Shown: piece by piece, positions 7,512 through 25,549 of the stretch
Position numbering within the stretch: the stretch's first letter is position 1
How the letters are laid out: each line of letters opens with the position of its first letter
Source: Candidatus Bathyarchaeota archaeon
Lineage (GTDB): Archaea; Thermoproteota; Bathyarchaeia; TCS64
Reading direction: 5' to 3'
NCBI GenBank assembly: GCA_016783485.1
Contig: JADHWM010000002.1
Coordinates: 1 to 62,727, forward strand
Length of the DNA stretch: 62,727 bases
Position numbers and translations under genes: made by a program
Notes under the pieces: generated by a model
What the model was told of the DNA's origin: nothing
The model's database searches: none
Seen by the model: the letters and a program-made list of their open reading frames with translations, nothing else

Positions 7512-8259
7512 GTTGCTCTCCTTCTCGTTCTCGGCGTTGGGGTCTCTGGTGTCGCTGGGGTTTCCTTTCACGAGGCAAACCGTCCTGTTCCTATTTCCCA
7601 AGCGCTTCATCCCCCTGTTTCTGGCGGCGCTCGAGCGGAGCATCGGGCTTCTGGCCCGGGTTAACCCATGGCTGGGGCACTACATCAGCGAGAGGGTCAT
7701 CGAGTACTCCTTCGTCGTGGAGAGCCTCGCCGCCATCCCTGCTGCGAGGGTGCTGGACGTCGGGTGCTGCGAGAGTTTCTTCACCCACTATCTCATCGAG
7801 AAGGGCTTCGACACCTACGGCATCGATGTACGCCCCTACCCCGAGAAGAGCCCCCGGCTCAACTTCATTCAGGCGAACACTTGGGACACGCCCTTCGAGG
7901 ACGGCTATTTCGGGGTCATCGTCGTGGTCTCAACCTTAGAGCACGTCGGCCTAGGCGCCTACGGGGGGCCCGTGGAGGATGAGGGGGATCTCATGACTAT
8001 GAGGGAGTTGAGGAGGATCCTGGAGAACAAAGGAACGCTGTTGCTGACGCTGCCGGTGAGTTCCGAGTACTCCGTGGACTGGGAACGTCGGTACGACTGC
8101 GACCGGCTCATAAGGCTCCTCGAGGGATTCACATTGGAACGGGGGGAGATCTGGCTCCACGAATCGAGGAGATGGGTCGAGACCCGAATAGACGACATCG
8201 AATCGATGCGGGACGCGATTGGGGAGGGCCTCGCGTGCCTCGAGCTCTCCAAGAGATGA
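7504..8259 (+). CDS. SAM-dependent methyltransferase
   Basis: VLDVGCCESFFTHYLIEKGFDTYGIDV (motif I plus acidic loop) and VVSTLEHVG; 8-nt overlap with upstream gene. Confidence 0.75.
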   Translation: MFELLSFSFSALGSLVSLGFPFTRQTVLFLFPKRFIPLFLAALERSIGLLARVNPWLGHYISERVIEYSFVVESLAAIPAARVLDVGCCESFFTHYLIEKGFDTYGIDVRPYPEKSPRLNFIQANTWDTPFEDGYFGVIVVVSTLEHVGLGAYGGPVEDEGDLMTMRELRRILENKGTLLLTLPVSSEYSVDWERRYDCDRLIRLLEGFTLERGEIWLHESRRWVETRIDDIESMRDAIGEGLACLELSKR

Positions 8260-9422
8260 AGGGGCGTCGGGAGGGGCGAGCCATGAATGTACTGTGGACC
8301 GCTGACCAGTATGACATGCAGCTCGGTGACCCCCGGGGAATATTCAACTACCTGTCGAACCTCGGCGAGGGCTTGAACGCGTCTCCCCGTATCACGCTGT
8401 CCGCTCTGAGGTTCATTAAATCCTCCACGAGCCTCAGCGAGAGAGATGTAACCATTTCCCTTCCTTCGCCGTCGCCGTTCTTCCTCTCCCTCAGAAACCT
8501 GACCCTTTCCATTACCCCCCTGGGTTCCCCCCTCTTTGACGGCGTAGATCTCCTCCACATCACTACATGGGGGGCGAGTTACACCCCCCTGCTGTTGTCC
8601 CGGAGATTGAGGGGGGTCGAGGTCGTCGCCACGGTCCACGACATCGGGAACGCGTTGCATCCCGACCTGTACCGCTACGGCTCGCTGGAACGATCCGCCC
8701 TCCTCAGCAGCCTGAGACAGCTGGCTCGGTCCGGCTGCGCGGTCATCGCCGTCTCCGAGTCCACCAAACGGGACCTGGTTCACTACATAGGGATCTCCGA
8801 GGATCTGGTTTTCGTCGTCCAGGAGGGCGTCGACGACCTCTTCAGACCAGTCGAGTACGAGGGTGCGAGGAATTTTCTTCGCGAAAACTACGGCGTCGAG
8901 AACGAGTATGCCCTTTACGTCGGGAGTTCTCATCCCCGGAAGAATCTCCGCCGGCTCCTCGAGGCCTTCTGTTCAGCGAAATCAGCTGGGCTCCCATGGG
9001 ATCTATTGCTCGTCGGGGTTCCTCCGGAAGACCTGGCGGCGATGCCTGGAGCGAATACGGATGATGTTCGCGCGCTCGGCTACGTGCCCCGGAAGCACCT
9101 CCCCTTTTTCTTCGGCGCCTGCGAGGCCTTCGTCTTTCCGAGCCTCTATGAGGGATTCGGGCTCCCCGTTCTTGAGGCGATGGCCTGCGGTGCACCTGTC
9201 ATCGCATCGAACAGGAGCAGCCTGCCCGAACTCGTGGGAGAAGCGGGGCTCCTGGTGGACCCCTACGATGTCGGATGCCTGTCTGAGTCGATGATGAGGC
9301 TCCATCATGATGAGGGGCTGCGAACCGCGTTGAGGCGAAAGAGCGTCGAGCGGGCCCGCCTGTTCACTTGGGATAAAGCCGTTGAGGGAACCTTGAGGGT
9401 GTACGAGAAATGCCTGATGTGA
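8256..9422 (+). CDS. Glycosyltransferase family 4
   Basis: [39 protein letters not shown]. The ORF is open from 8172, but ATG 8256 forms an ATGA overlap with the upstream stop (ATG 8283 is also possible). Confidence 0.85.
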
Positions 9423-11548: not shown

Positions 11549-12579
11549 TACTGATAACCGGCGGCTCGGGTTACCTCGGGAGCCACCTCGCGAGGCGTCT
11601 CCTCGCGGAGGGGGAGGATGTCCGGATTCTGGACTTGGTGGATCCCCCCGGGGGACTCGCGTCTGAGGTGGAGTTCGTCGGGGTGGACGTTCGGGACTTC
11701 GAAGCCGTGGCGGAATCATGCACAGGCGTGGAGGCCATTTTTCACACGGCGGCGTCTGTGCCGATATCCAAGGCGGGGAAGGGGTTCAACGAGGTGAACG
11801 TGGAGGGGACGAGGAATGTGCTGGAGGCGGCTCTCCGGCTCGAGCATAGACCCCAAGTCATTCACATCTCCTCGAGCGCCATATACGGGGTGCCGGAGAG
11901 GAACCCGATCGACGAGGAGACTCCCTTCGCCCCGCTGGGGGAGTACGGCCGGTCTAAGGTTGAGGCTGAGAGGCTCTGCCAGATGTACTCCTCGGAGCAC
12001 GGTCTCAGGACCTGCATCATAAGGCCCCGGGGCATCCTCGGCGGAGCCATGAGGCTGGGGATCTTCGGCATCCTCTTCGACTGGATCCGGGACGGTAAGA
12101 GGGTTTACCTCATCGGGAAAGGGGAGAATCTGTACCAGTTCCTCAACATCCACGATCTTGTGGACGCATGCGTTCTCGCATGGAGGAAGAAGGCTACGGG
12201 GGCGTTCTGCATAGGCTCGGACGACTATTTGATGGTCAAGGATCTACTGGGTGAGCTGATAGACTACGCAGGAACCGGGGCAGGTCTCGTTCCGATAAAC
12301 AAGACCCTCGCGAAGAACGCTTTGAAAGCCTTGGACTGGCTGAATCTCTCTCCCCTCGTGGGCTGGCACTACCTGGGGGGCGGGGAAGACTTTTACTACG
12401 ACTGCAGCGAGGCGAAGAGGGTCCTGGGTTGGAGCCCGGTGCACAGCGATCTCGAGTCCTTGAAGGAGTCGTACAATTGGTTCCTGGAGCATTACGGGGA
12501 AGAGGCCGGGAGGACCGGCGTGACTCACCGCCAGACGCCCAGCCAGGGGCTGTTGAAAATTCTGAAGTGGCTCTCATAA
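11545..12579 (+). CDS. NAD-dependent epimerase/dehydratase (extended SDR)
   Basis: ILITGGSGYLGSHL Rossmann motif; YGRSK catalytic YxxxK; ATGA overlap with the UbiA gene. Confidence 0.85.
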   Translation: MILITGGSGYLGSHLARRLLAEGEDVRILDLVDPPGGLASEVEFVGVDVRDFEAVAESCTGVEAIFHTAASVPISKAGKGFNEVNVEGTRNVLEAALRLEHRPQVIHISSSAIYGVPERNPIDEETPFAPLGEYGRSKVEAERLCQMYSSEHGLRTCIIRPRGILGGAMRLGIFGILFDWIRDGKRVYLIGKGENLYQFLNIHDLVDACVLAWRKKATGAFCIGSDDYLMVKDLLGELIDYAGTGAGLVPINKTLAKNALKALDWLNLSPLVGWHYLGGGEDFYYDCSEAKRVLGWSPVHSDLESLKESYNWFLEHYGEEAGRTGVTHRQTPSQGLLKILKWLS

Positions 12580-12595
12580 GCGAACTTGATAGGCC

Positions 12596-13252
12596 ATGAT
12601 AATCGATCTCCACATCCACACCAAGTATTCGGGCGACTCCAGCAACGATCCGGTCGAGTTGGTCAAGGCGGCCAAGGCGAAGGGCCTGGACGGCATAGCG
12701 GTGACTGACCACGATTCCGTGAAGGCCTGGGAGCATTTCCCCGAGGACGACGACTTCACCATCATCCAGGGGATTGAGCGGACGACCGATCACGGCTCCG
12801 TCATCGGGCTATTCCTGACCGAGGGGATCGAAGCCCGGGGTTTCTGGGAGGCCGTCGAAGAGATCAAGAGCCAGGACGGGATCGTGGTGCTTCCCCACCC
12901 CTGCGACGCCCTCAGGAGGGACACCCCCAAGATCGGGAGCCTCGACGAGAGCCTCCTCAGGGCTAGAGTAGACGCCGTGGAGGTGTTCAACTCTAGGTGT
13001 GTTTTGGGCCAATTCAACGAGAACGCCGAGAAACTTGCAGCAGATCTGGGCAGGCACCGGGTGGGGGGCAGCGACGCCCACACCCTAGGCGAGGTGGGTA
13101 ACACTCGAACACTCTTCGACTGCGACTCCCTCAACGAGATCCATATCCAGTTGAAGAGGAGAGCCCCCATCAACACGGTCATCCAGGGGAGCCTGTCGAG
13201 TAGACTCGTCCATTTATCCTCGTTCCTTAACCGGATGAAGGGTAAAGAGTAG
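12596..13252 (+). CDS. PHP-domain metal-dependent phosphoesterase
   Basis: IIDLHIHTKYSGDS, GIAVTDHDS, LPHPCD, GGSDAH motifs. Confidence 0.8.
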   Translation: MIIDLHIHTKYSGDSSNDPVELVKAAKAKGLDGIAVTDHDSVKAWEHFPEDDDFTIIQGIERTTDHGSVIGLFLTEGIEARGFWEAVEEIKSQDGIVVLPHPCDALRRDTPKIGSLDESLLRARVDAVEVFNSRCVLGQFNENAEKLAADLGRHRVGGSDAHTLGEVGNTRTLFDCDSLNEIHIQLKRRAPINTVIQGSLSSRLVHLSSFLNRMKGKE

Positions 13253-13274
13253 CAGAGGGCGCAGGAGGAACGCT

Positions 13275-14273
13275 TTGGACGAGCTCATAGGCTTCGGGCG
13301 GGTCAACGACTTCTCCACATTCGTGTTGAGGGCCAGCCTGGCGAGGCGCTTCGGTTTGTTCGGCGAGATACCGATGTGGGGAGGGATCAAACTGCACGAG
13401 TTCTACCCGCCGCTCTCCACGATGCTGGTGCAGTTTCTCACGATGCGGGGGGCGCTGCTGCTCTACCTCGTGTCCACCCTCGTCGCTTGGAGCTACGGAA
13501 GGGGACCCATATTCGCAGTGCTCTACTTGGCCAGCTTCTTCCACGTGTTCCACATGCTGGAGAACGGGCGATTCGCCGAGTTCCTCGGGTACACCCTCGT
13601 TGTCTCGGCCTGGTTCATCGACAGCGGCATCTTCTCGGGGATACTTTTCGGGCTCGCGGCCATGTCCCATCCCCTGGGGTTCTTCGTGGGCTTCGCCCTG
13701 ATGGCGTTGAAGATGGATCTCACGCCCTTCCTGGTGGCGTTCCCGCTGTGCGGATGGTGGTACACCATCTTCCTGATCCAGAGGAAGCGGCTCTCATATC
13801 TCATGGAGGAGCGCCCCGACAAGTTCCTCGGGATATACTTTGCCTCATATCTCAGCGTAGCAAATCTTCTCCTCTTCCTATTCGCGCCCCTCTGGCTGTG
13901 CGCCGTCGTAACGATAGCGATCTGGCTGCTCCCCGTCTCCCTCAGGGGCAACTATAGCAAGCCCACGATAAGTTTCCCCCAGATCGAGGCGAGGATCAGA
14001 TACTTCATCAAGGCGCTCAGGACTCCCGTGTATCTGTCGGAGATCAAAGAGATCCTGCCGGGGCTCGACGACATCGAGGAGTCCCCCGTGATGATCAAGG
14101 AGCATGATTATGCGAGCTCCTTCAACGAGCTCGTATGGGCGAGCGCCACATACCTGATGGACAGGGGCGTCGTGGTCTACAACGGGTTGCCCTCGACGGA
14201 GGTGCCCAGGGAAAACCTTGAGCTAACTTTAGCTAGTAATATCCCAAGATTCACCATTGAAGACCTAAAATAG
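13275..14273 (+). CDS. Polytopic membrane protein, unknown function
   Basis: Multiple hydrophobic helices followed by a ~100-aa soluble tail; TTG start uncertain. Confidence 0.6.
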   Translation: MDELIGFGRVNDFSTFVLRASLARRFGLFGEIPMWGGIKLHEFYPPLSTMLVQFLTMRGALLLYLVSTLVAWSYGRGPIFAVLYLASFFHVFHMLENGRFAEFLGYTLVVSAWFIDSGIFSGILFGLAAMSHPLGFFVGFALMALKMDLTPFLVAFPLCGWWYTIFLIQRKRLSYLMEERPDKFLGIYFASYLSVANLLLFLFAPLWLCAVVTIAIWLLPVSLRGNYSKPTISFPQIEARIRYFIKALRTPVYLSEIKEILPGLDDIEESPVMIKEHDYASSFNELVWASATYLMDRGVVVYNGLPSTEVPRENLELTLASNIPRFTIEDLK

Positions 14274-14319: not shown

Positions 14320-15369
14320 ATGACTGAGAGAACGCTGGTCACGGGGGCGAGCGGCTGGCTTGGGAACCGGCTGTGCCAGACCCTAGGGGAGCGAGGAAGG
14401 GACATCAGAGCCATGGTAATCCCCGAACACAGGGAGCACCCCGACATACTGAGGCTCCGGGAAAATTTACCGGCCGGCTCCTTGGAGGTAGCCGTGGGCG
14501 ACGTCAGGGACCCCGAGTCCCTCGATGAAGCGTGCAGGGACATCGACACCGTCTTCCACACCGTGGGGGTCATCCACCCCCGGAACGCCAAGGCGTTCTA
14601 CGAGATCAACGCCGAGGGCACCCGGAACACCGTCGAGGCGTGCGAGAGGATGGGTGTGAGGCGGGTCATCTACGTCAGCAGCAACGCCGCCCAGGGGTTC
14701 AACAGGGTCTACGAGGAGAGGGATGGCGTAAGGGTTCCCGTTTCCCTCACCGAGGAGATGCCCTGCCACCCCGAGAGCGATTACGGTAGGAGCAAGTTGC
14801 AGGCCGAGGGGATAGTGAACGGAGCGCACGAAGAGCACGGCATCGAGACCGTCATCATACGCCCCCCCATGTACTACGGCCCCAGGCTCCCCGAGAGGAC
14901 CCAGCGGCTCTACAACATGATCAAAGGAGGCCTCCCCATCGTCGGGGGAGTCCCCGTCTTCGGCGGAGGGAACGTCTACCGGAGCGTCGTCTACATCGAC
15001 AACGTCTGCGAGGCCCTCCTCCTAGCCGAGACCAGCGGAAAAGCCGACGGAGAGACCTACTGGGTCGCCGACGACGGCATGATAACCTGGAGGGATTATC
15101 TGGAGGTCGTCGCATCCAAGCTCGATGTCGAACTCAGCCTCTTCAGCCTCCCCCTCTTCGTGGCCAAGGCGCTGGAGATGGGAGACAAGGCGACCGGCTG
15201 GATCGGGATGTACCAACAGCTGTTCCACGTGCTCGGCGAGATGGGGCGGGACTGCATCTGCAGCATCGAGAAGGCGAAGCGTGATCTGGGCTACAGGGCG
15301 AAGGTTAGCACCGAAGATGGCATTGGGAGGGCCGTGGAATGGATGAGAGAGAACGACCTGGTGGCGTGA
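14320..15369 (+). CDS. NAD-dependent epimerase/dehydratase (extended SDR)
   Basis: LVTGASGWLGNRL; SDYGRSKLQAE (YxxxK). Confidence 0.85.
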   Translation: MTERTLVTGASGWLGNRLCQTLGERGRDIRAMVIPEHREHPDILRLRENLPAGSLEVAVGDVRDPESLDEACRDIDTVFHTVGVIHPRNAKAFYEINAEGTRNTVEACERMGVRRVIYVSSNAAQGFNRVYEERDGVRVPVSLTEEMPCHPESDYGRSKLQAEGIVNGAHEEHGIETVIIRPPMYYGPRLPERTQRLYNMIKGGLPIVGGVPVFGGGNVYRSVVYIDNVCEALLLAETSGKADGETYWVADDGMITWRDYLEVVASKLDVELSLFSLPLFVAKALEMGDKATGWIGMYQQLFHVLGEMGRDCICSIEKAKRDLGYRAKVSTEDGIGRAVEWMRENDLVA

Positions 15370-15375
15370 TGTTGA

Positions 15376-16470
15376 ATGTCTGAGTTTCTGAGGGTCTGGT
15401 GGGCGAATCTCAATCGCATCCTCCTCCTGCTTAGGGTGAAGGGGCTCAGGTACACCTGGAACCGGATCCACTTCAACATCTTCTACTACTCCAAGAACCC
15501 CATAGTGATCAGGCTCCTGCCCTTCCTGGTGAAGTATCCCCCCTACATCGAGCTGGAGGTGACCTCCCGGTGCGCCTTCAGATGCGTCATGTGCGAGCAC
15601 ACCTACTGGGACGAGCCCGAGGTGGACGTCTCCTACGAGGAGTTCAGGGAGGTCGTCGACGAGTTCCCCGGGCTCAAGTGGATCGGCCTCTTCGGGATCG
15701 GGGAGCCCTTCCTCAACAGGGACTATATGAAGATGGTCCGCCACCTCAAGGAGGAAGGGGTCTACATCGAGATCTACGACACCTTCTACTACACAGACGA
15801 CGCCCTCGCCAAGGAGCTCGTGGAGCTGGAGTTTGACAGGATGTTCGTCTCCCTCGACGCCGCGACCAAGGAGACCTACGAGGCGATCCGGATCGGCTCC
15901 AACTTCGATCGTGTGGTGGAGAACGTGAGGAACTTCGTGCGGGTCAAGAACGAGTCGGGCTCCATATTCCCCGACTTTCTCTTCCACTTCGTGATGATGG
16001 AGAACAACGTCCACGAGATGCCCGCCTACGTCGACCTCGTCCACTCCATCTGCGGCGACCAGGGGGTCATCCAGTTCTCGGACCTCCTCCACGAGTTCGA
16101 GGAGATCAAGCACCTCGCCACCGAGGTCCCCCCGGAGATCGTGGAGGCCACTAAGAGGCGTGCCGAGGAGCGGGGGGTCTCGATAGCATGGAACTGGAAC
16201 ACCGAGAGGGAGAAGCCCCCCATTCAGCGGTGCACCGCATGGATCATGCCCTACATCTTCGTGAGCGGCCACGTCATTCCCTGCTGCGTCGGGAACGAGG
16301 CGAACCAGAGGGAACTCCAGAAGAAGCTGAGCCTGGGCAACGTCAACGAGAATAGCTTCAAGGAGATATGGGACTCCCCCGAGTACAAGCGGTTCCGAGC
16401 GATGATCAGGCGGGGGGAGACCCCTCCCCAGTGCAGGGACTGTGGAGTCTTCGCGGTGGACAAGGAATGA
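15376..16470 (+). CDS. Radical SAM enzyme with SPASM/twitch-like C-terminal Cys cluster (1 of 3)
   Basis: CxxxCxxC in EVTSRCAFRCVMCEH; GIGEPFLN; C-terminal CTAWIMPYIFVSGHVIPCCVGN...PPQCRDCGVF. Confidence 0.85.
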   Translation: MSEFLRVWWANLNRILLLLRVKGLRYTWNRIHFNIFYYSKNPIVIRLLPFLVKYPPYIELEVTSRCAFRCVMCEHTYWDEPEVDVSYEEFREVVDEFPGLKWIGLFGIGEPFLNRDYMKMVRHLKEEGVYIEIYDTFYYTDDALAKELVELEFDRMFVSLDAATKETYEAIRIGSNFDRVVENVRNFVRVKNESGSIFPDFLFHFVMMENNVHEMPAYVDLVHSICGDQGVIQFSDLLHEFEEIKHLATEVPPEIVEATKRRAEERGVSIAWNWNTEREKPPIQRCTAWIMPYIFVSGHVIPCCVGNEANQRELQKKLSLGNVNENSFKEIWDSPEYKRFRAMIRRGETPPQCRDCGVFAVDKE

Positions 16471-16498
16471 TGGATGAACCGACGGGGAAGCCTGTGAA

Positions 16499-17467
16499 AT
16501 GCTGAAAGACATCCTCCTGCAGCTCCAACCCGAGTTCTATAGGCCCACATTAGCCCGTCTCATCGTCACCCATAACTGCCCCCTGAAATGTCAGATGTGC
16601 TCCTTCTGGCACGAGTGGAAACAGGACCCCACGACGGAGGATCTCAAAGCATGGATCAAGGAGCTCGTTGATTTCGGCGTCGAGGACATCAGCCTCGGGG
16701 GCGGGGAGCCCTTCATCAGGAAGGATCTGACCGAACTCGTCGAGGAGATCCATTCATATGGCATCACCTGCGGCGTCACCACGAGCGGATGGATAGAAAA
16801 GGACCCCTTCCCCCCCGTGGACCGGGTGGAGGTCTCCATCGACGGGGCGAAGCCGGAGACCCACGACAAGATCCGGGGCATGGAGGGCTCCTGGGAGAAG
16901 GCTGTGGGCCTAGTGAAACGGCTCAAGGAGATGGGGAAGATCAACCAGATCAACTTCGTCCTCCAGAGAGACAACTACCTGGAGCTCGAGGAATACACCA
17001 AGATGGCAAAATCCCTCGGGGTCAAGGCCTCGATTATCCCCATCAGCCTGGACCTAGTGGCCCAGCCCCGCCTCGACGGCGGCCTCGCCGAGATAGACCC
17101 CGTGCTGCTGAGGGACCAGATCGAGAAGGCCTACGCCGTGGGCAACGTCGCGACCTCCCGGGAGTTCATCGAGTTCTGGCTGGCCAAGGCGAACCAAGAG
17201 GAGACCCGCACCCGGTGCCTCGCCCCCAACGTCGAGATACTCGTCTTCGCCACCGGGGACGTGTACCCCTGCGGGAACATCCAGAAGCCGGTGGGCAACC
17301 TGAGGGAGGCCTCCTTGGAGAACATTTACAGGGGTTACAGGGAGAGAAGGAAGGAGATCAGGGAGGGCTCATATTCCGCATGCGACGAGTGCATCTACCC
17401 CGACATCATCTTCGCCAGGGGATTCTGGCAGAACACGGAGCGTTTGTTCAAGAGGGTGCTTCCGTGA
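16499..17467 (+). CDS. Radical SAM enzyme with SPASM/twitch-like C-terminal Cys cluster (2 of 3)
   Basis: VTHNCPLKCQMCSFW; GGGEPFIR; C-terminal CLAPNVEILVFATGDVYPCGN...YSACDECIYP. Confidence 0.85.
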   Translation: MLKDILLQLQPEFYRPTLARLIVTHNCPLKCQMCSFWHEWKQDPTTEDLKAWIKELVDFGVEDISLGGGEPFIRKDLTELVEEIHSYGITCGVTTSGWIEKDPFPPVDRVEVSIDGAKPETHDKIRGMEGSWEKAVGLVKRLKEMGKINQINFVLQRDNYLELEEYTKMAKSLGVKASIIPISLDLVAQPRLDGGLAEIDPVLLRDQIEKAYAVGNVATSREFIEFWLAKANQEETRTRCLAPNVEILVFATGDVYPCGNIQKPVGNLREASLENIYRGYRERRKEIREGSYSACDECIYPDIIFARGFWQNTERLFKRVLP

Positions 17468-17509
17468 ATACACGAAAATCAGGCTCAATTCGATAGGGAA
17501 CGTGGATAG

Positions 17510-18652
17510 TTGTCCATTGGGAACCGGATCCTGAGAGGATTGTTCAACACAGGATTAGGGTATAGGAACCTCGTACGGTTCTACACCGTTTTCCCCCGCT
17601 TCCTCCCGTCGCACGTCCCCTGGGATCCCACGGGCCTCTCCGTCTGGGTCACCACGCAGTGCAACCTGCGATGCGAGTACTGCCTGAAGAGCGTGTCCGA
17701 CTCGGAGGACATCCTCCTGAGCGAGGAGACCTTCGAGAACATCGCCTCAAACGTCCGCGAGGGAATGAAAGTCACCTTCCTGGCGGAGGGTGAGCCCCTG
17801 ATCCACCCCGAGTTCCTCAATTTCATCCGCACCGTCAAGGAGAGAGGCGGCGAAGTGGACTTCAGCACCAACGGGATGCTCCTCACGAAAAAGAACATGA
17901 GCGAGATCGTGGATCTGGGCGTCGACGAGATCACCTTCAGCATCAACGGCATGTATGACACCCACGAACAGCTGTCCCCCGGATCGAACTTTGAGCGCAT
18001 CATGAACAACATCGGCGAGCTTCACGATCTAAAAGACGGGCGAGATGGGAAACCGGAGCTGGCCGTGTGTTTCATCGGTTCCACGAGGAACATCCATGAA
18101 CTCCCCGAACTCGTCGAGGCTCTCAGCCCGTACACGAAACTGATTCGGCTGAACAACCTGATACCCTGGACCCCCGAGATGTACGATGAGCACCTTAGCA
18201 ACGATGCGACCAGAACCCTGCAGATATTCGAGAAAAGCAGGAAGGTGGCAAGGGAGACGGGCGTCAACCTCATCATCAGGCCGCTGACGCCGAAGGTGGA
18301 GATATGCTGGGAGCCCTGGCTGAAACCCTACGTGGCCCACGACGGGTCGGTCATCCCCTGCTGCCTGGTCGGGGATCACTACTCCATCACCCCTGAGCCG
18401 AGCGAGTGGTTCGACAAGATAGAGACCCGCATGCTCCCGGAGACATACGTCATGGGGAATCTGAACGACACCAGCCTAGATGAGATTTGGAACAATCAGC
18501 AGTACAGGCGGTTCAGGAGAAGACTCTCCGAGGCGATAGCAGCCGACAGGAAGAGAGACTGGACCCTTCAGGAGTATTCGCGGCACCGAGAGGAACACAA
18601 GGACGACTTTTACTGCAAGACATGCACCCTCAGGTACGGACTGGTCTGCTGA
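17510..18652 (+). CDS. Radical SAM enzyme with SPASM/twitch-like C-terminal Cys cluster (3 of 3)
   Basis: VTTQCNLRCEYCLK; AEGEPLIH; C-terminal CWEPWLKPYVAHDGSVIPCCLVG...YCKTCTLRYGLVC. Confidence 0.85.
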   Translation: MSIGNRILRGLFNTGLGYRNLVRFYTVFPRFLPSHVPWDPTGLSVWVTTQCNLRCEYCLKSVSDSEDILLSEETFENIASNVREGMKVTFLAEGEPLIHPEFLNFIRTVKERGGEVDFSTNGMLLTKKNMSEIVDLGVDEITFSINGMYDTHEQLSPGSNFERIMNNIGELHDLKDGRDGKPELAVCFIGSTRNIHELPELVEALSPYTKLIRLNNLIPWTPEMYDEHLSNDATRTLQIFEKSRKVARETGVNLIIRPLTPKVEICWEPWLKPYVAHDGSVIPCCLVGDHYSITPEPSEWFDKIETRMLPETYVMGNLNDTSLDEIWNNQQYRRFRRRLSEAIAADRKRDWTLQEYSRHREEHKDDFYCKTCTLRYGLVC

Positions 18653-18689
18653 AACACCTCACATCAGAACGCCCTATCTCTCCTCTCCG

Positions 18690-19991
18690 ATGAACTCAAG
18701 TGAACTCAATCTGGGGTTCAAGATGAGCCCGGACGAAAACATAGATCAACTGATGAAGAAACACCTCGAACATGCCACCCGAAAGATGCTCGTTAGCATT
18801 GGCGAAGAAAAAATCAAGTCGATTATCCTGACCGGGAGCGTGACGAGGGGAGAAGGCTCAGGGATTGCGACCGATCACGGCATCGAGATATTCAGCGACT
18901 ACGACCTCATGGTCCTGGTGGCCCCGAGCCACGACTCCTCCATAGACCGGCTTCGACGAGAATCCGCTGCCCTCTCTGAAAAAATATCCGAAGAACTCTT
19001 GGGAGACGGCCTCCTCTCCGGAGTCAGCATATATCCTCTGAGCGTCGACGACTTGGAATCGCTGACTCCCACGATGTTCACGCTGCAGCTCAGAAACTGC
19101 GGGAAGGTGCTCTATGGTGCTGAATGCCTCGATGTCATCCCAGACTATGATGTCGAGGACATACCCAAGATCGATTCCCTCACGATGCTGAACAACAGGA
19201 TCGCCACCCAGATGAAGTTCCTCGACCCCGAGGTGTTCGTCTGGAAGACCAGGGAGGACCCTCGACAGGTCCGGATGTCCATCTACCATACGGCCATAGC
19301 CTTCATTGATTTGAGCAGCTCCCTCCTGAACCTCATCGGGAAATTCCAGCTGAGTTATGGAGAGAGAGCCGAGGTCTTCCAAAAGGAATTCCATAGATTT
19401 CCGTACCTGAAGGAGCAATGCCCCGATCTTCCAGAGGTGGTGGACTTCTTCACGAGGCTGAAATATGATCCTGATCTTCGCAGGGTCGCCGAGAGATACG
19501 GCTACGGATGCTCTGATGAAGAGCTTGTGGATGTCGCAGTCAAGGTTTGGCTCGAACTCCTCGACTACGTCAAGCCCGTTTGGGCTCATCATGTCAGGGA
19601 ACTATGCGATCCCGGTCCAGACGCTCATGATGTAAAAGATCTGGTGGAGGCTTTCTTCAGGTACGCCAACACTCTCGATTCTCGTCTGGTCTCCATCATC
19701 CATTATCTGAAGTCTAACAACTATTCTCTCGGCTCGATTCCCCGAAGCACAAGATTCTTATCCGCTTCTCTGCCGGCTGCGGTCTACTCCACACTGATAC
19801 TCCAGTATTACGCGACGCCCGGGATTCTAGAGAAAGAACACATTGACCGGGCCCCCCTCCTTTCAGACGCTCAAAAATACCTCAACAAACTCCCCCATGA
19901 GCAACCGCCGGGAATCTTTGAAAACCCCATCAAGCACTGGGACCGGATGAGGCGAGTCGGCTCAAAGATGTGGTCGAGATACATCGAGTGA
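18690..19991 (+). CDS. Pol-beta-superfamily nucleotidyltransferase-domain protein with large helical C-terminal region
   Basis: ILTGSVTRGEGSG...IFSDYDLMVLV matches the G[SG]-spacer-DxD NTase signature; the remainder is unassigned. Confidence 0.6.
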   Translation: MNSSELNLGFKMSPDENIDQLMKKHLEHATRKMLVSIGEEKIKSIILTGSVTRGEGSGIATDHGIEIFSDYDLMVLVAPSHDSSIDRLRRESAALSEKISEELLGDGLLSGVSIYPLSVDDLESLTPTMFTLQLRNCGKVLYGAECLDVIPDYDVEDIPKIDSLTMLNNRIATQMKFLDPEVFVWKTREDPRQVRMSIYHTAIAFIDLSSSLLNLIGKFQLSYGERAEVFQKEFHRFPYLKEQCPDLPEVVDFFTRLKYDPDLRRVAERYGYGCSDEELVDVAVKVWLELLDYVKPVWAHHVRELCDPGPDAHDVKDLVEAFFRYANTLDSRLVSIIHYLKSNNYSLGSIPRSTRFLSASLPAAVYSTLILQYYATPGILEKEHIDRAPLLSDAQKYLNKLPHEQPPGIFENPIKHWDRMRRVGSKMWSRYIE

Positions 19992-21160
19992 ATAAAACCC
20001 TCATCGTTTTCATCGACGGCCTCGGATACGACCGGGTAAACGACTCCTCATTCACGCTCAATCTATCCAACGAGCCCATCAGACTGACCCCCGCACTGGG
20101 CTACAGCTCAGCGCAGCAATCTATCATGTGGACCGGGAAAATGCCCTCTGAGACGGGGCGGTGGAGCGAACTGGCGTACTCTCCCGAGTCTTCACCCTGG
20201 TGGTGGCTGGGCTCCAGATACCTGATGTATCTGGACGAACTTGTGGCCAGAGCCCCACGTAAATTCAGATCGCTCTACGAGATCGTCGCCCGGGAAACGA
20301 TAAGATTCCTGAGCGGATGGATACGCCCCTTCCGTTCATACGACGCTTTCGCTGTGCCCGTCTCCAAGCTCAGCCACTTCACTCCGTATGAATCGGACAT
20401 CCATCAACCCGGCTGCCTAGGTGAGACGGAGACCCTGTTCGATATCCTGAGGAGCAGGGGGGTGAATTATCGCTACATCGGATACCCCGATGTCAAGGAG
20501 GACCACGAAGTTCATGGGAAGGGCATGGAAGCGATAATGGAAAACGACGTGATAATCCTCGGCTTCACGGAGCTGGACTCCATTGAACACCATTATGGAG
20601 TGGATTCAAGGGAAGCCCGGGATAAACTGGGTGAACTCAACGCATTCATCAACGATCTGATAGCGCTCTTCGAATCGAGCAACCCGGATGGCACCGTCAT
20701 CGTCTTCTCCGATCACGGCATGAGCGAGGTCAAGCACTCGATAGATGTCCAAGGAAGAGTGAATTGTCTCGACCTCCGAGACGGGTACGACTATCTCTCG
20801 TTCTACGACGCAACCATGGCCCGATTCTGGTTCTACACCGAGGCTGCTGAATCCATGATCACGGAGCTGCTGCGAACGATCGAGGGAGGAGTGATTCTGG
20901 AGGACGATGAATTACGCTCTTTGGGCCTGGACTTCGGCGACGACGCCTTCGGCGACCTCATCTTCTTGGTCGACGAGGGGTTCGTGGTCTCCCCGAACTA
21001 TTTCCAGGGCAGGACGGTTCCCCGGGGGATGCACGGATACCATCCTAGGAATCCCGGCCAACACGCCTTTCTCGCGAAGAACGATGAACCGGTGCCGAGG
21101 TCAACCATATCCATGGACGAGGTCTTCGACATCTTCATCCAGGCTCTAGGAATCACGTAG
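19970..21160 (+). CDS. Alkaline-phosphatase-superfamily protein (nucleotide pyrophosphatase/phosphodiesterase- or PglZ-like)
   Basis: LIVFIDGLGYD, VIVFSDHGM, GMHGYHP metal-ligand motifs; overlaps upstream gene by 22 nt. Confidence 0.7.
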   Translation: MVEIHRVNKTLIVFIDGLGYDRVNDSSFTLNLSNEPIRLTPALGYSSAQQSIMWTGKMPSETGRWSELAYSPESSPWWWLGSRYLMYLDELVARAPRKFRSLYEIVARETIRFLSGWIRPFRSYDAFAVPVSKLSHFTPYESDIHQPGCLGETETLFDILRSRGVNYRYIGYPDVKEDHEVHGKGMEAIMENDVIILGFTELDSIEHHYGVDSREARDKLGELNAFINDLIALFESSNPDGTVIVFSDHGMSEVKHSIDVQGRVNCLDLRDGYDYLSFYDATMARFWFYTEAAESMITELLRTIEGGVILEDDELRSLGLDFGDDAFGDLIFLVDEGFVVSPNYFQGRTVPRGMHGYHPRNPGQHAFLAKNDEPVPRSTISMDEVFDIFIQALGIT

Positions 21161-21184: not shown

Positions 21185-22411
21185 ATGAGTAAAAGGCTCG
21201 CGATAATCGCGAAGAGGTACGCAGACCCCATACCCGAGGGTCACACCCAGGCCTCCATCAACCTCATCAACAGCGTCCTAGGCTCAGAGTTGAAACCCCG
21301 GGTCATCTCCCACGGGCGGCCCCTCACAAGGGGCGACGTCCACATCTACAAACCCCTGGACGACCAGGTCTACGCCGTGTACGGCATGTTCGCCATACCC
21401 AAGTTCTCTAAAACGCTGGGAGCCGTCGCCTTCAAGATTCACGAACTCTACAGGATCCTTATCTCGGGTTGCCTGACCAAGGGCTTCGATGCGATATACC
21501 TGACGAACGTCCCGATGACCCAATACTCCGCATTCCTGAAACTCCTTTCGAAGGCCAGGAATAAGAAAGTGAAGATAGTCGCTCACGCGTTCCACCCCTA
21601 CACCCCTGAGGTGGGGCTTTTCCACGGAAACCATAGATGGCTGTTGAGCCACGGGAGCACGGACCACGTCTTCTGCATCAATCGTAGACTCGTGAGCCAC
21701 TACTCCGGGATCCTCGACCCGGGCAACGTTCATCACGTACCCTACCCTGTTGACACCGAACGATTCAAACCCCGAGACAAGACCGAAGCCCGGAAGCTGC
21801 TGAGGCTTCCCGAAGATGCGAGAATAATAGGATACGTTGGCCATCTGACTTTGGATCGAGGAGCATACGATCTGGTTGAGGCTGTGGGCGATGTGTCGTC
21901 AAGCCACAGGGATCTGATTCTGGCCATCGTCTCGTCTCCCTTCGTCACCGAGGAGCAGTACAAGGACTTTATGCATCACGTGCAAAAATATGGGGTGGAA
22001 GACAAGATCAAAATACTGAATCGCAGAGGAGACTATTACTACAACGCTATATTCAGTGGCTTCGACCACATAGATCGTTTTTTCAATGCCGTGGACATCG
22101 CTGCCCTCCCCTTCCGGAAACCGTATACGATAATCGATCCCCCCGTCACCCTCCTCGAAGCCATGTCCTCAGGAACCCCCCTAGTCACGACGAAAGCAGG
22201 GGCGATCGGAGAAGTCGCAGGCGGCGGCAACTCGGTCCTGATCCCCCCCGGCCAGGAGGGGGAGCTCAGGGAAGCCCTGGATGGCCTTCTGAAGGACGAC
22301 GAATCCAGGGGAAGAATCGGCTCGTCGGCGAGGTCGCACATGGTGAGCAATTATTCTCTGGATGCCATCGGTCATAGAATGATAGAATTATTCGAGGGCA
22401 TCATGGCATGA
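21185..22411 (+). CDS. Glycosyltransferase family 4
   Basis: DPPVTLLEAMSSGTPLVTTKAGAIGEVAGGGNSVLIPPG and GT-B-like two-domain length. Confidence 0.8.
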   Translation: MSKRLAIIAKRYADPIPEGHTQASINLINSVLGSELKPRVISHGRPLTRGDVHIYKPLDDQVYAVYGMFAIPKFSKTLGAVAFKIHELYRILISGCLTKGFDAIYLTNVPMTQYSAFLKLLSKARNKKVKIVAHAFHPYTPEVGLFHGNHRWLLSHGSTDHVFCINRRLVSHYSGILDPGNVHHVPYPVDTERFKPRDKTEARKLLRLPEDARIIGYVGHLTLDRGAYDLVEAVGDVSSSHRDLILAIVSSPFVTEEQYKDFMHHVQKYGVEDKIKILNRRGDYYYNAIFSGFDHIDRFFNAVDIAALPFRKPYTIIDPPVTLLEAMSSGTPLVTTKAGAIGEVAGGGNSVLIPPGQEGELREALDGLLKDDESRGRIGSSARSHMVSNYSLDAIGHRMIELFEGIMA

Positions 22412-24940: not shown

Positions 24941-25546
24941 GTGTTGTTCGGCCCCGATGGCTCGGGCAAGACCACGCTGTCGAGAGCCTTGGCGAGAACC
25001 CTCGTGGAGCGGGGGCAGCCGGTGAAGTGGTGCTGGATGCGGGGGAGCCACACCTTCGTCTCCCTGCTCTCCAGATTCCTCGCCCGATTCCCCGCGTTCC
25101 ATGGCCTCTCGAACCCCTATTACGGGATAGCCGTCCCCCCCTCTGCCTCGAGGCTGTGGCTCCTCCTGGAATACATCGGCTTCCTCCCGATCTACCTGCT
25201 CCAGTACGCCCTCCCCGCGTGGCTCGGCTACACCATCGTCTCCGACAGATTCACCGCAGACCTCGTGGTCTGGATCACCCTGGTGACAGACGATCCCACG
25301 GTGACCGACAGCCTCCTAGCCAGACACCTGATGGCCCTCATGCGGAGAGCCGGCCCCCTGTTCTTCGTCACTGCGGGGCTGGGACGCCTCGTGGCCCGAA
25401 GCGGGGAAGACCCCGGTTACATGAGGCGTCAACTGGCTTTGTATGGTAAATTGGGCTTGAACGCCAATATCATCGACACGACGGATGAGACACCAAAGGA
25501 CTCATTGAATAAGATCCTGGCGATAATAGACGGAGGTGGGTGCTGA
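24941..25546 (+). CDS. P-loop NTPase, (d)NMP-kinase-like
   Basis: Walker A FGPDGSGKTTL at the N-terminus; IVSDRF; ~200-aa kinase-like size; an unusual hydrophobic insert LWLLLEYIGFLPIYLLQYALPAWLGY. Confidence 0.65.
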   Translation: MLFGPDGSGKTTLSRALARTLVERGQPVKWCWMRGSHTFVSLLSRFLARFPAFHGLSNPYYGIAVPPSASRLWLLLEYIGFLPIYLLQYALPAWLGYTIVSDRFTADLVVWITLVTDDPTVTDSLLARHLMALMRRAGPLFFVTAGLGRLVARSGEDPGYMRRQLALYGKLGLNANIIDTTDETPKDSLNKILAIIDGGGC

Positions 25547-25549
25547 GCG

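What the first reader, a model, noticed from the sequence alone, without database searches (positions are those of the whole stretch)
15376..21160. Three tandem radical SAM/SPASM-like enzymes plus nucleotidyltransferase and alkaline-phosphatase-fold protein, with no room for a precursor peptide
Seen: three consecutive ORFs each have an N-terminal CxxxCxxC (SRCAFRCVMC, HNCPLKCQMC, TQCNLRCEYC) and a Cys-rich C-terminal region (..PCC.. / ..PCG.. then C..C). The gaps between them are only 28 and 42 nt. After a 37-nt gap comes a Pol-beta-type NTase-motif protein (GSVTRGEG...SDYDLMVLV). Overlapping it by 22 nt is an alkaline-phosphatase-superfamily protein (FIDGLGYD, FSDHGM, GMHGYHP). Established: SPASM/twitch radical SAM enzymes mostly mature peptides or proteins (AlbA, PqqE, MftC, anSME), with carbohydrate-acting exceptions such as BtrN. 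Inference: no small ORF fits between these genes, and they sit inside a glycan locus upstream of a sortase-like cassette. They therefore either perform radical chemistry on a sugar or lipid-linked glycan, or modify the neighbouring surface proteins in trans. Three paralogues in a row with an NTase and an AP-fold partner is not an arrangement I can match to a described pathway. The two adjacent surface proteins contain almost no Cys, which argues against sactionine-type crosslinks.
Basis: partly seen in the sequence, partly recalled or inferred. Interest (0 to 1): 0.7.

Follow-up and report, generated by a model that had tools for sequence, protein, structure and literature searches.

The report
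Sugar-tailoring radical enzymes plus nucleotidyltransferase–phosphodiesterase pair
This archaeal five-gene block is most likely cell-surface sugar-tailoring machinery built from two separately widespread but uncharacterised modules, three radical SAM enzymes and a nucleotidyltransferase/phosphodiesterase pair, and it is not a peptide-modifying system.

Summary
Five co-directional ORFs lie at 15376-21160 with 28, 42 and 37 nt gaps: three radical SAM enzymes, a Pol-beta-type nucleotidyltransferase (NT) and an alkaline-phosphatase-fold protein (AP).

- **Wrong detail:** the three radical SAM proteins are not full SPASM enzymes. Each has a BtrN-like "twitch" pattern of four Cys for one auxiliary cluster. 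They are old paralogues, at most 26% identical.
- **Conservation:** the block recurs in related "Bathyarchaeota" MAGs. A distant low-GC lineage carries rSAM3-NT-AP-(B12-rSAM)-rSAM1. Another carries all three radical SAM genes without NT or AP.
- **Two modules:** rSAM1 relatives occur in at least 368 species genomes, usually beside a sugar-1-phosphate nucleotidyltransferase, an SDR, a GT4 and HpnJ-like B12 radical SAM genes. AP relatives occur in at least 577 genomes in bacterial exopolysaccharide loci. NT is nearby in 45 of 78 sampled loci and none has a radical SAM gene.
- **Folds:** NT resembles aminoglycoside O-nucleotidyltransferases. AP resembles NPP phosphodiesterases.

The best reading is radical tailoring of an activated sugar, plus nucleotidylation and phosphodiester processing of a sugar hydroxyl. 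The exact chemistry is unknown. No family reaches a curated functional cut-off, and I found no paper describing them.

The parts
14320..15369 (+). Extended SDR (NAD-dependent epimerase/dehydratase family), ending 6 nt before rSAM1. Likely redox partner of the radical SAM enzymes.
   Evidence: Pfam Epimerase 1.7e-35. NCBIfam gives only sub-threshold hits: HpnA-like 115 bits, LegB, RmlB. An SDR also abuts the rSAM1 orthologue in L004, with a 4-nt overlap. An SDR lies within 5 kb of rSAM1 relatives in 40 of 76 loci.
15376..16470 (+). rSAM1: radical SAM enzyme with a twitch-type C-terminal domain. Family signature C66xxxC70xxC73-EHTYW. Auxiliary-cluster Cys are C286, C303, C353, C356, with an extra invariant C304.
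   Evidence: PF04055 2.4e-16 and PF13186 7.7e-15. Best NCBIfam hit is TIGR04317 at 147 bits against a cut-off of 380. The family profile matches only BtrN (7.8e-11) and DesII (2.3e-6) in the PDB, and its Cys align with BtrN C169, C187 and CxxC. 368 confirmed loci in species genomes.
16499..17467 (+). rSAM2: radical SAM enzyme with four conserved C-terminal Cys (C240, C258, C295, C298), enough for one auxiliary cluster.
   Evidence: PF04055 3.7e-22 and PF13186 2.9e-8. Best NCBIfam hit is TIGR04053 at 105 bits against 395. PDB sequence matches are PqqE, SkfB and BlsE. The orthologue in L004 is 54% identical. rSAM2 lies next to rSAM1 in Patescibacteria loci L144, L145, L157 and L166. A B12-binding radical SAM gene replaces it in L011, L012 and L173.
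17510..18652 (+). rSAM3: radical SAM enzyme with a twitch-type domain (C266, C284/C285, C369, C372, C380). It always lies directly upstream of NT-AP where the two modules meet.
   Evidence: PF04055 5.2e-19 and PF13186 7.3e-14. TIGR04317 scores 156 bits against 380. BtrN is the top single-sequence PDB match at 7e-8. Orthologues in L004 (34%), L011 and L012 (26%, 23%). Distant homologues all lie in glycan loci.
18690..19991 (+). NT-like protein: an N-terminal Pol-beta nucleotidyltransferase domain followed by a large helical domain, resembling aminoglycoside O-nucleotidyltransferases. In this clade two residues conserved across the family are replaced: D/E113 is Ser and K203 is Ile.
   Evidence: No Pfam hit. 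The family has 868 representatives at E<=1e-3. The family profile matches AadA at 0.0025 and ANT(4') at 0.08-0.19. The AF2 model has pLDDT 93.7. The top eight Foldseek PDB hits are all ANT(4'), probability 0.95-1.0.
19970..21160 (+). AP-fold protein of the NPP (nucleotide pyrophosphatase/phosphodiesterase) type. It has no signal peptide or transmembrane segment. The real start may be the GTG at 19988.
   Evidence: PF01663 1.6e-14. The family profile matches Xanthomonas NPP at 3.5e-18, then ENPP6, 5, 7 and 4. D16, D203, H207, D248, H249 and H355 are invariant in 21 family members. At least 577 loci in species genomes.
21185..22411 (+). GT4 glycosyltransferase directly downstream of AP. It keeps this position in the close relatives.
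   Evidence: Pfam Glycos_transf_1 1.5e-17. Same position in L001, L002 and L003.
8172..9422 (+). GT4 glycosyltransferase related to the GT4 subfamily that accompanies rSAM1 relatives elsewhere.
   Evidence: tblastn with the rSAM1-linked GT4 of L141 gives 37.5% identity, 5e-56. Pfam GT4.

Best explanation
The block is cytoplasmic glycan-tailoring machinery made of two modules that are conserved separately and have been brought together in this lineage.

**Module 1: SDR 14320-15369 plus rSAM1, rSAM2 and rSAM3.** This module remodels an activated sugar, most likely an NDP-hexose or possibly a lipid-linked sugar.
- Each enzyme cleaves SAM at its CxxxCxxC cluster.
- The resulting 5'-deoxyadenosyl radical abstracts a hydrogen from a sugar carbon.
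- The single BtrN-type auxiliary [4Fe-4S] cluster takes up or relays the electron.
- The outcome would be a keto, deoxy or epimerised sugar. The neighbouring SDRs would reduce it and the GT4 enzymes would install it.

**Module 2: NT plus AP.** This module resembles an aminoglycoside-type O-nucleotidyltransferase paired with an NPP-type phosphodiesterase.
- It would nucleotidylate a hydroxyl on a sugar or glycan intermediate.
- It would then cleave or transfer the resulting phosphodiester.
- The net result is either a phosphate-containing decoration or transient activation or masking.

**Shown here:** gene content, fold and family assignments, cluster-binding Cys patterns, conservation, and the gene neighbourhoods.

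**Inferred:** the substrate class, from neighbourhood association and from similarity to BtrN, DesII, ANT and NPP. Every chemical step is also inferred.
For: **The locus is a glycan locus**
- It holds seven GT4 genes, a polysaccharide deacetylase, methyltransferases, two SDRs and a DPPR-synthase-like UbiA gene.

**The block is conserved**
- Five-gene synteny is identical in L001, L009 and L010/L013, and in the parts that the shorter contigs L002 and L003 cover. The NT and AP proteins are 76-94% identical.
- L004 and L005 carry one-to-one orthologues of all three radical SAM genes (40%, 54% and 34% identity) among SDR, GT4, NTP-transferase and LicD genes.
- L011, L012 and L173 carry Wzx, rSAM3-like, NT (31%), AP (40-43%), a B12-binding radical SAM gene, rSAM1-like (41-42%) and GT4, together with SDR and NTP-transferase genes.

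**The rSAM1 family sits in nucleotide-sugar cassettes**
- There are 368 confirmed loci across anaerobic archaea and bacteria.
- In 76 sampled loci, within 5 kb of rSAM1: GT4 in 58, NTP-transferase in 45, SDR in 40, HpnJ-like B12 radical SAM in 44.
- The micro-synteny rSAM1-GT4-SDR-NTP-transferase recurs.

**Similarity to sugar-acting radical SAM enzymes**
- The rSAM1 profile matches only BtrN and DesII in the PDB.
- Its four Cys align with the four Cys of BtrN's C-terminal twitch domain.

**The NT-AP pair**
- NT: the AF2 model has pLDDT 93.7, and Foldseek's top eight hits are ANT(4'). The sequence profile also hits AadA and ANT(4').
- AP: it has an NPP-like profile, and all its metal ligands are invariant.
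- NT lies within 10 kb of AP in 45 of 78 bacterial EPS loci, always on the same strand, and is adjacent in 15.

**Modularity**
- None of the 78 bacterial AP loci has an rSAM1-, rSAM2- or rSAM3-like gene.
- None of the 76 rSAM1 loci has NT or AP.
- G+C drops from 0.59 to 0.50-0.56 starting at the NT gene.
Against: - No member of any of the five families has a demonstrated function, so the substrate is inferred from neighbours only.
- The 62.7-kb window has no sugar-1-phosphate nucleotidyltransferase of the type that accompanies rSAM1 elsewhere.
- The window's NT protein lacks the family's usual third acidic residue (Ser113) and a 91%-conserved Lys (Ile203). It may therefore not be an active transferase.
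- The AP nucleophile position is Ser or Thr in only 14 of 21 family members.
- Foldseek E-values (about 0.02) and TM-scores (0.25-0.40) for NT are modest.
- rSAM2 and rSAM3 profiles match peptide-modifying enzymes (PqqE, SkfB) about as well as sugar-modifying ones.
- The literature library I searched lacks most subscription-journal papers, so a published characterisation could have been missed.
Confidence: 0.68

Rival explanations
1. The radical SAM enzymes are peptide or protein maturases, as in RiPP or anSME systems. They would act in trans on the neighbouring archaeosortase-type surface proteins or on an unlinked precursor.
For: Most characterised SPASM and twitch enzymes act on peptides. 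rSAM2 and rSAM3 have sub-threshold matches to PqqE, SkfB, StsB and WgkB models. An archaeosortase-family gene and two secreted proteins lie 5-13 kb downstream.
Against: There is no room for a precursor gene. There is no PqqD or RRE domain hit. The surface proteins have 0 and 2 Cys. Orthologues and relatives in more than 80 other loci are never next to such proteins and almost always lie among nucleotide-sugar and GT genes. All three proteins have the single-cluster twitch pattern.
Confidence: 0.06
2. The radical SAM enzymes modify a lipid rather than a sugar. The target would be the polyprenyl or dolichyl carrier, or an archaeal membrane-lipid head group, as with Tes, GrsA/B, HpnH, HpnJ or calditol synthase.
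For: A DPPR-synthase-like UbiA gene, a PHP phosphatase and membrane proteins lie just upstream. The adjacent SDR's best model is the hopanoid-associated HpnA. The B12-binding radical SAM genes that accompany rSAM1 elsewhere resemble HpnJ at 351 bits. There are weak hits to Tes and HpnH models.
Against: All those matches are far below the curated cut-offs. The most frequent partners of rSAM1 are a sugar-1-phosphate nucleotidyltransferase, an SDR and a GT4, which points to a soluble NDP-sugar. HpnJ itself acts on the sugar part of its substrate (my own knowledge). Bacterial and archaeal hosts with very different lipids share the family.
Confidence: 0.12
3. NT and AP form a regulatory writer/eraser pair, or a nucleotide-signal synthase and phosphodiesterase pair, that controls polysaccharide production. 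They would not be tailoring enzymes.
For: One family member hits the SMODS model at 1e-5. NPP enzymes hydrolyse nucleotides and dinucleotides. Some bacterial loci place a SpoIIE/SiaA-like phosphatase or STAS proteins next to AP.
Against: Structure and profile searches both put aminoglycoside O-nucleotidyltransferases first, not CD-NTases. The pair is embedded inside operons of GT and sugar-modifying genes on the same strand. The regulatory neighbours are lineage-specific.
Confidence: 0.12
4. One radical SAM enzyme, rSAM3, matures the adjacent AP-fold protein. The analogy is anSME, which makes formylglycine in sulfatases.
For: rSAM3, NT and AP are adjacent in two distant lineages. AP-superfamily sulfatases are the classic targets of radical SAM maturases.
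Against: AP belongs to the PF01663 NPP type and has no C/S-x-P-x-R motif. No anSME model appears among the best 25 NCBIfam hits listed for any of the three radical SAM proteins. 78 bacterial loci encode the AP family without any radical SAM gene of these types.
Confidence: 0.03

Closest known systems
BtrN (2-deoxy-scyllo-inosamine dehydrogenase, butirosin pathway; PDB 4M7T/4M7S)
   Same: It has a radical SAM core plus a C-terminal twitch domain with one auxiliary [4Fe-4S] site. The rSAM1 Cys C286, C303, C353 and C356 align with the four Cys of BtrN's C-terminal domain at C169, C187 and the CxxC. It acts on a carbohydrate. It is the best PDB match for the rSAM1 family and for rSAM3 as a single sequence.
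   Different: Similarity is confined to the core motifs and the twitch domain (E 7.8e-11). The proteins here are about 100 residues longer, with N-terminal extensions and an extra invariant Cys. They occur in surface-glycan loci, not aminoglycoside clusters. Their substrate and reaction are unknown.
DesII (TDP-4-amino-4,6-dideoxy-D-glucose deaminase/dehydrogenase; PDB 8HZV) and the AprD4/AprD3 radical SAM dehydratase plus SDR reductase pair
   Same: These are radical SAM enzymes acting on nucleotide-activated or glycosidic sugars. DesII is the second and last PDB match of the rSAM1 profile. An SDR lies directly next to rSAM1 here and in L004, as AprD3 accompanies AprD4.
   Different: Scores on the NCBIfam models are very low: DesII 30 bits against a cut-off of 450 for rSAM1, and AprD4 58-60 bits against 500, seen only for the B12-type partners. 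No aminotransferase is part of the core cassette. Whether the SDR acts as a reductase is untested.
ANT(4') kanamycin nucleotidyltransferase and AadA / ANT(3'')(9)
   Same: They have a Pol-beta nucleotidyltransferase domain followed by a helical domain. The G-S ... D-x-D/E motif is conserved. They are the top structural and profile matches. These enzymes transfer NMP to a sugar hydroxyl.
   Different: The protein here is about 180 residues longer, with a much larger helical region. Identity is only 10-12%. Neither the family nor this protein is linked to antibiotic resistance. The family instead sits in polysaccharide loci paired with an NPP-like gene. The window's clade has lost two residues conserved across the family.
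Bacterial NPP / ENPP nucleotide pyrophosphatase-phosphodiesterases (e.g. Xanthomonas NPP, PDB 2GSN)
   Same: It shares the PF01663 fold. All six metal-ligand positions are invariant. It is the best profile match at 3.5e-18.
   Different: The protein here has no signal peptide and so appears cytoplasmic. The position that aligns with the nucleophile threonine is an invariant Gly, and a nearby Ser is only partly conserved. It is genetically coupled to a nucleotidyltransferase inside EPS operons.

Membership tests
Radical SAM superfamily | CxxxCxxC cluster motif within a PF04055 core, plus a glycine-rich SAM-binding motif | tested here: met
   All three proteins have the motif (C66/70/73, C27/31/34, C51/55/58) and pass PF04055 at 61-80 bits against a cut-off of 29.5. 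They carry GIGEPF, GGGEPF and EGEPL motifs.
SPASM subfamily (two auxiliary clusters) | Seven or eight conserved C-terminal Cys (CX9-15GX4C ... CX2CX5CX3C ... C) that bind two [4Fe-4S] clusters (definition as in PMC9477430) | tested here: not met
   The Pfam PF13186 model is passed. However, orthologue alignments show only C-x11-G-x4-C plus C-x2-C. No CX2CX5CX3C is present. Conserved Cys number four in rSAM2, five in rSAM1 and five or six in rSAM3.
Twitch subfamily (BtrN-like) | Three or four conserved C-terminal Cys that bind one auxiliary [4Fe-4S] cluster | tested here: met
   The rSAM1 profile aligns C286, C303, C353 and C356 with BtrN C169, C187 and CxxC. rSAM2 and rSAM3 show the same spacing pattern. 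Actual cluster content cannot be tested with these tools.
RiPP / peptide maturase radical SAM enzymes | An adjacent precursor peptide gene and/or an RRE (PqqD-like) recognition domain | tested here: not met
   Gaps of 6, 28, 42 and 37 nt hold no ORF. There is no PqqD or RRE hit. The only small ORF seen in a relative (L012, 45 aa) is not conserved.
Any curated radical SAM equivalog (W-cofactor maturase TIGR04317, PqqE, MftC, AhbD, NirJ, MoaA, BlsE, DesII, viperin and others) | Score at or above the NCBIfam curated cut-off | tested here: not met
   Best scores are 147, 105 and 156 bits against cut-offs of 380, 395 and 380. All other models score lower. PADLOC pVip hits are 26-59 bits and cover only the core.
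Pol-beta-fold nucleotidyltransferases (ANT-like) | The hG[GS] motif, the [DE]x[DE] metal-binding pair, a third acidic residue on the next strand, and the NTase alpha/beta fold | tested here: inconclusive
   G49 and D70 are invariant, S50 is the commonest residue at its position (S 29, G 15, A 9 of 54), and D/E72 is acidic in all 54 members. The fold is supported by AF2 and Foldseek. The third acidic position is D or E in 83% of the family but Ser113 in this protein, and K203 is Ile. No Pfam NTase model is passed by this protein.
Alkaline-phosphatase superfamily, NPP branch (PF01663) | A bimetal site (Asp; Asp/His; Asp-His; His) plus a Thr or Ser nucleophile | tested here: inconclusive
   PF01663 scores 54.8 bits against a cut-off of 23. 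D16, D203, H207, D248, H249 and H355 are invariant. The residue aligned to the NPP Thr nucleophile is Gly44. Ser46 is Ser or Thr in only 14 of 21 members.
Sulfatase plus anSME maturation system | A sulfatase with a C/S-x-P-x-R motif next to a two-auxiliary-cluster radical SAM maturase | tested here: not met
   The Sulfatase model scores 18.7 bits, below its cut-off of 25. No CxPxR motif is present. The AP family occurs without radical SAM genes of these types in 78 loci.
Known anti-phage defence systems | Match to a PADLOC system model | tested here: not met
   NT and AP have no hits. The radical SAM proteins have only weak core matches to pVip.

The most novel reading that the evidence does not exclude
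The twitch radical SAM families here, above all the widespread rSAM1 family with its C-x3-C-x2-C-EHTYW signature, would make a class of surface sugars not yet described in anaerobic archaea and bacteria. Candidates are radical-derived deoxy, keto, epimerised, branched or carbocyclic sugars, made with HpnJ-like B12 enzymes in many lineages. Separately, the NT-AP pair would be a previously unrecognised two-step route, found in more than 500 species, that places or removes a phosphodiester on exopolysaccharides by nucleotidylation followed by NPP-type cleavage.
Probability: 0.25. Interest if true: 0.8.

Novelty: new variant of a known kind. Interest (0 to 1): 0.55.

Why it matters
- **A gap in surface-glycan biosynthesis.** Radical SAM chemistry on sugars is known almost only from antibiotic pathways such as BtrN, DesII, AprD4, HygY and NeoN. 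Here a twitch radical SAM family appears in at least 368 species-level genomes of anaerobes, including methanogens, ANME relatives, anammox bacteria, Patescibacteria and Asgard archaea. It sits in a compact nucleotide-sugar cassette, which points to an unexplored branch of cell-surface sugar biosynthesis.
- **An unannotated gene pair in EPS loci.** The ANT-like NT and NPP-like AP pair is an unannotated accessory of exopolysaccharide loci. The AP gene is present in at least 577 species and had NT nearby in 45 of 78 sampled loci. Working out what it does could reveal a new glycan decoration or activation step.
- **Testable targets.** The work names cultured organisms that carry each module: Methanospirillum stamsii Pt1 for rSAM1 plus rSAM3, and Lentisphaera marina IMCC 11369 for NT-AP.

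Tried and rejected
- **First AF2 run failed.** Predicting NT from a five-sequence alignment gave pLDDT 42 and was unusable. A 54-sequence alignment from the representatives search fixed it.
- **Word-indexed search under-reported NT.** It found only five relatives of NT, suggesting an orphan. The exhaustive HMMER search found 868.
- **Wasted look-up.** The look-up of encoding contigs does not index ids from the representatives search, so one look-up was lost.
- **Alignments too divergent or too narrow.** With the rSAM2 and rSAM3 alignments its patterns were too narrow and returned only the two Bathyarchaeota MAGs. The true spread of rSAM2 and rSAM3 is therefore underestimated.
- **Literature.** Five searches for a characterised homologue or for radical SAM enzymes in polysaccharide loci found nothing relevant. 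The Kuenenia S-layer glycan paper gives only a circumstantial lead.
- **Readings rejected.** A RiPP system, anSME-type maturation of AP, a defence system, and recent tandem duplication of one radical SAM gene. The reasons are given under the rival explanations and the membership tests.

Full report

ORF listing confirms five co-directional genes at the stated coordinates:
- rSAM1, 15376-16470, 364 aa.
- rSAM2, 16499-17467, 322 aa.
- rSAM3, 17510-18652, 380 aa.
- An NT-like protein, 18690-19991, 433 aa.
- An AP-fold protein, 19970-21160, 396 aa.

The intergenic gaps are 28, 42 and 37 nt, and an SDR gene ends 6 nt before rSAM1. No peptide gene can fit.

Pfam assigns Radical_SAM plus SPASM to all three radical SAM proteins and Phosphodiest (PF01663) to the last protein. 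The NT-like protein has no Pfam hit.

Two details need adjusting:
- The 22-nt NT/AP overlap shrinks to a 4-nt GTGA overlap if the GTG at 19988 is the start. The 94%-identical orthologue P0126 was called from that start.
- The long NT start at 18690 is supported, because distant homologues conserve the first 11 residues.

**2. What the three radical SAM proteins are**

- They are old paralogues. Pairwise results are 26% (2e-33), 25% (1e-18) and 23% (2e-4).
- None reaches any curated NCBIfam cut-off. The best are TIGR04317 at 147 and 156 bits against 380, and TIGR04053 at 105 bits against 395.
- Orthologue alignments show C-x11-G-x4-C followed much later by C-x2-C. There are four to six conserved Cys and no CX2CX5CX3C.
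- By the usual definition, SPASM has seven or eight Cys for two clusters and twitch has three or four Cys for one (PMC9477430). These are therefore twitch-type enzymes.
- A profile of the rSAM1 family matches only two solved proteins, both sugar enzymes: BtrN (7.8e-11) and DesII (2.3e-6).
- That alignment places C286, C303, C353 and C356 on BtrN C169, C187 and its CxxC.
- That these four BtrN Cys bind its auxiliary cluster is my own knowledge of the BtrN structure. I could not re-read the paper here.
- rSAM1 has an extra invariant Cys (C304) and rSAM3 a mostly conserved one (C285), each next to a predicted cluster ligand. These could act as hydrogen donors, as in radical SAM epimerases. That is speculation.

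**3. Context in the window**

- The organism is archaeal: a LonB protease is present, and the closest genomes are MAGs labelled Candidatus Bathyarchaeota.
- Positions 0-28 kb form a glycan locus.
- It holds seven GT4 genes, a polysaccharide deacetylase and three methyltransferases.
- It holds a UbiA gene scoring 204 bits on the decaprenyl-phosphate phosphoribosyltransferase model (cut-off 234), followed by an SDR and a PHP phosphatase.
- It holds polytopic membrane proteins.
- Downstream lie an exosortase/archaeosortase-family protein and a CAAX protease.

**4. Is the block conserved?**

Yes, at three levels.

(a) *Close relatives.* L001, L009 and L010/L013 keep the same order across the whole neighbourhood, and the shorter contigs L002 and L003 match over the genes they cover. 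The NT and AP proteins are 76-94% identical.

(b) *A low-GC lineage, L004 and L005.* It has one-to-one orthologues of all three radical SAM genes:
- rSAM1 at 40% identity, 8e-91.
- rSAM2 at 54%, 7e-128.
- rSAM3 at 34%, 2e-51.

They are arranged differently, flanked by SDR, GT4, NTP-transferase and LicD genes. Neither NT nor AP is on the 15-kb contig.

(c) *A further lineage, L011, L012 and L173.* The order is Wzx, rSAM3-like, NT-like (31% identity, 1e-57 to 1e-68), AP (40-43%), a B12-binding radical SAM gene, rSAM1-like (41-42%), then GT4. SDR and NTP-transferase genes are also present.

The rSAM3-NT-AP adjacency is therefore old. rSAM2 can be replaced by a B12-type radical SAM gene.

**5. Two separable modules**

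They span Verrucomicrobiota, Acidobacteriota, Omnitrophota, Cloacimonadota, Rokubacteria and others. I searched the ORFs of the 78 bacterial loci with profiles of the five families:
- An NT-family gene lies within 10 kb in 45 loci, always on the same strand as AP.
- It is adjacent to AP in 15 loci.
- No rSAM1-, rSAM2- or rSAM3-like gene is present in any of them.
- Clustering and annotation of the neighbours show exopolysaccharide loci. They hold a polyprenyl glycosylphosphotransferase, GT4 and GT2 genes, Wzx and Wzy-like genes, Wza and Wzc-like genes, and in 22 loci a uridine-kinase-like gene.

*The rSAM1 family.* It returned 368 confirmed loci at 36-55% identity.
- Archaeal hosts include Syntrophoarchaeum, Methanoperedens, Methanospirillum stamsii, Hadarchaeota, Heimdallarchaeota and Nanoarchaeia.
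- Bacterial hosts include Patescibacteria, Omnitrophota, Nitrospirota, Brocadiaceae and Elusimicrobiota.
- In 76 sampled loci none has NT or AP.
- rSAM1 is usually the only twitch enzyme present.
- It is joined by rSAM3 in five loci and by rSAM2 in four.
- Within 5 kb there is a GT4 in 58 loci, a sugar-1-phosphate nucleotidyltransferase in 45 and an SDR in 40.
- Also within 5 kb, an HpnJ-like B12 radical SAM gene (351 bits on TIGR03471, cut-off 577) is present in 44.
- The string rSAM1-GT4-SDR-NTP-transferase recurs in unrelated archaea.

*In the window.* G+C falls from 0.59 to 0.50-0.56 starting at the NT gene. This fits a mosaic origin.

**6. NT and AP**

*NT.*
- An exhaustive search shows NT belongs to a family of 868 representatives, 400-450 aa long. 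The word-indexed search had found only five.
- With a 54-sequence alignment AlphaFold gives pLDDT 93.7.
- The eight best PDB matches are all ANT(4') kanamycin nucleotidyltransferase, with probability 0.95-1.0, E about 0.02 and low global TM.
- The sequence profile independently finds AadA (0.0025) and ANT(4').
- The family conserves G49, D70, D/E72, E55, N169, R170, Y223 and R226.
- The window's clade has Ser where 83% of the family has Asp or Glu (position 113).
- It has Ile where 91% of the family has Lys (position 203).
- This particular protein may therefore be catalytically altered.

*AP.*
- The AP profile matches Xanthomonas NPP (3.5e-18) and ENPP4 to ENPP7.
- All six metal-ligand positions are invariant.
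- The nucleophile position is unclear.
- It has no signal peptide or transmembrane segment, judged by reading the sequence.

**7. Most likely mechanism**

*Shown:* the families, folds, Cys patterns and neighbourhoods above.

*Inferred, module 1.* The SDR plus rSAM1, rSAM2 and rSAM3 perform successive radical tailoring steps on an activated sugar. These could be oxidation, dehydration or epimerisation at unactivated carbons. The single auxiliary cluster would handle the electron as in BtrN. The SDRs would handle keto intermediates, as in the AprD4/AprD3 logic. The GT4 enzymes would install the product.

*Inferred, module 2.* NT would transfer an NMP to a sugar hydroxyl, and the NPP-like AP would cleave or transfer that phosphodiester.
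- The uridine-kinase-like neighbour in bacterial loci would fit nucleoside release and recycling, but that is only a hint.
- I put 0.68 on the general statement: sugar or glycan tailoring by two modules.
- I put no more than about 0.2-0.3 on any specific reaction.

**8. Rivals**

- Peptide or protein maturation: 0.06.
- Lipid modification: 0.12.
- A regulatory role for NT-AP: 0.12.
- anSME-like maturation of AP: 0.03.
- PADLOC gives no support for a defence system.

These are probabilities for each statement taken on its own. Some concern only one module, so they are not meant to sum to one with the main explanation.

**9. Novelty**

Radical SAM chemistry on carbohydrates, O-nucleotidyltransferases and NPP enzymes are all known kinds. 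These particular families, their cassettes and the NT-AP pairing reach no curated functional cut-off. I found no paper that describes them in five searches of an incomplete library.

I therefore rate it a new variant of a known kind, of moderate interest. The most useful outputs are the wide distribution of the rSAM1 cassette and of the NT-AP pair, and cultured organisms in which to test them.

Noticed in passing
window 10652-14273: A UbiA-family gene scores 204 bits on the decaprenyl-phosphate phosphoribosyltransferase model (cut-off 234). It overlaps an SDR gene by 4 nt and is followed by a PHP phosphatase and a 332-aa polytopic membrane protein. This looks like an archaeal counterpart of the mycobacterial DPPR to DPR to DPA route, which makes a lipid-linked pentose donor.
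   Followed up: partly
window 24941-34261: This stretch holds a P-loop protein, a 335-aa unknown, an exosortase/archaeosortase-family protein (26557-27480; TIGR04178 39.5 bits against 23) and a CAAX protease. Two secreted proteins follow on the minus strand (645 aa with CARDB, and 1142 aa), each ending in a transmembrane segment and a basic tail. Together with the glycan genes it resembles an archaeal version of the bacterial exosortase-linked EPS loci. Some bacterial NT-AP loci carry exporter and tyrosine-kinase genes with sub-threshold matches to XrtA-associated models.
   Followed up: partly
window 18690-19991 (residues 113 and 203): The NT-like protein of this clade has Ser113 and Ile203. 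The wider family has Asp or Glu in 83% and Lys in 91% of members at those positions. The gene is nevertheless kept intact at 76-87% identity among relatives, so it may be a catalytically altered or scaffolding form.
   Followed up: partly
L094-L170, e.g. L123 7033-12200, L146 5513-6925: HpnJ-like B12-binding radical SAM genes accompany rSAM1 in 44 of 76 loci, with up to three per locus (351 bits on TIGR03471, full length, below the 577 cut-off). HpnJ is associated with the sugar-derived cyclitol of hopanoids, so carbocyclic or C-methylated surface sugars are a possibility.
   Followed up: partly
L115, L120, L123-L125, L142 (Brocadiaceae / Kuenenia genomes): Anammox genomes carry the rSAM1 cassette. 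The published Kuenenia S-layer O-glycan contains an unidentified 174-Da residue and heavy methylation (PMC5088730). This is a lead only; no link was shown.
   Followed up: no
L047 6650-7327 and 21 other bacterial AP loci: A uridine-kinase-like gene (176.7 bits on PRK05480, cut-off 180) recurs about 2.5 kb upstream of AP in 22 of the AP loci clustered. It could recycle a nucleoside released by the NT-AP reaction, or it could phosphorylate a sugar.
   Followed up: no
window 15022-16512, minus strand: A 496-aa ORF runs antisense to the SDR and rSAM1 genes. It is a shadow ORF typical of GC-rich coding sequence, and nothing supports it as a gene.
   Followed up: partly
L004 12340-14394: Two adjacent 330-346-aa P-loop proteins lie next to the three radical SAM genes, one of which has a weak HPr-kinase C-terminal match. 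Function unknown.
   Followed up: no
L012 4067-4204: A 45-aa ORF lies between the rSAM3-like and NT-like genes. It is absent from the window. In L011 the corresponding 446-nt gap probably holds the uncalled N-terminus of NT. It is not a conserved precursor candidate.
   Followed up: partly
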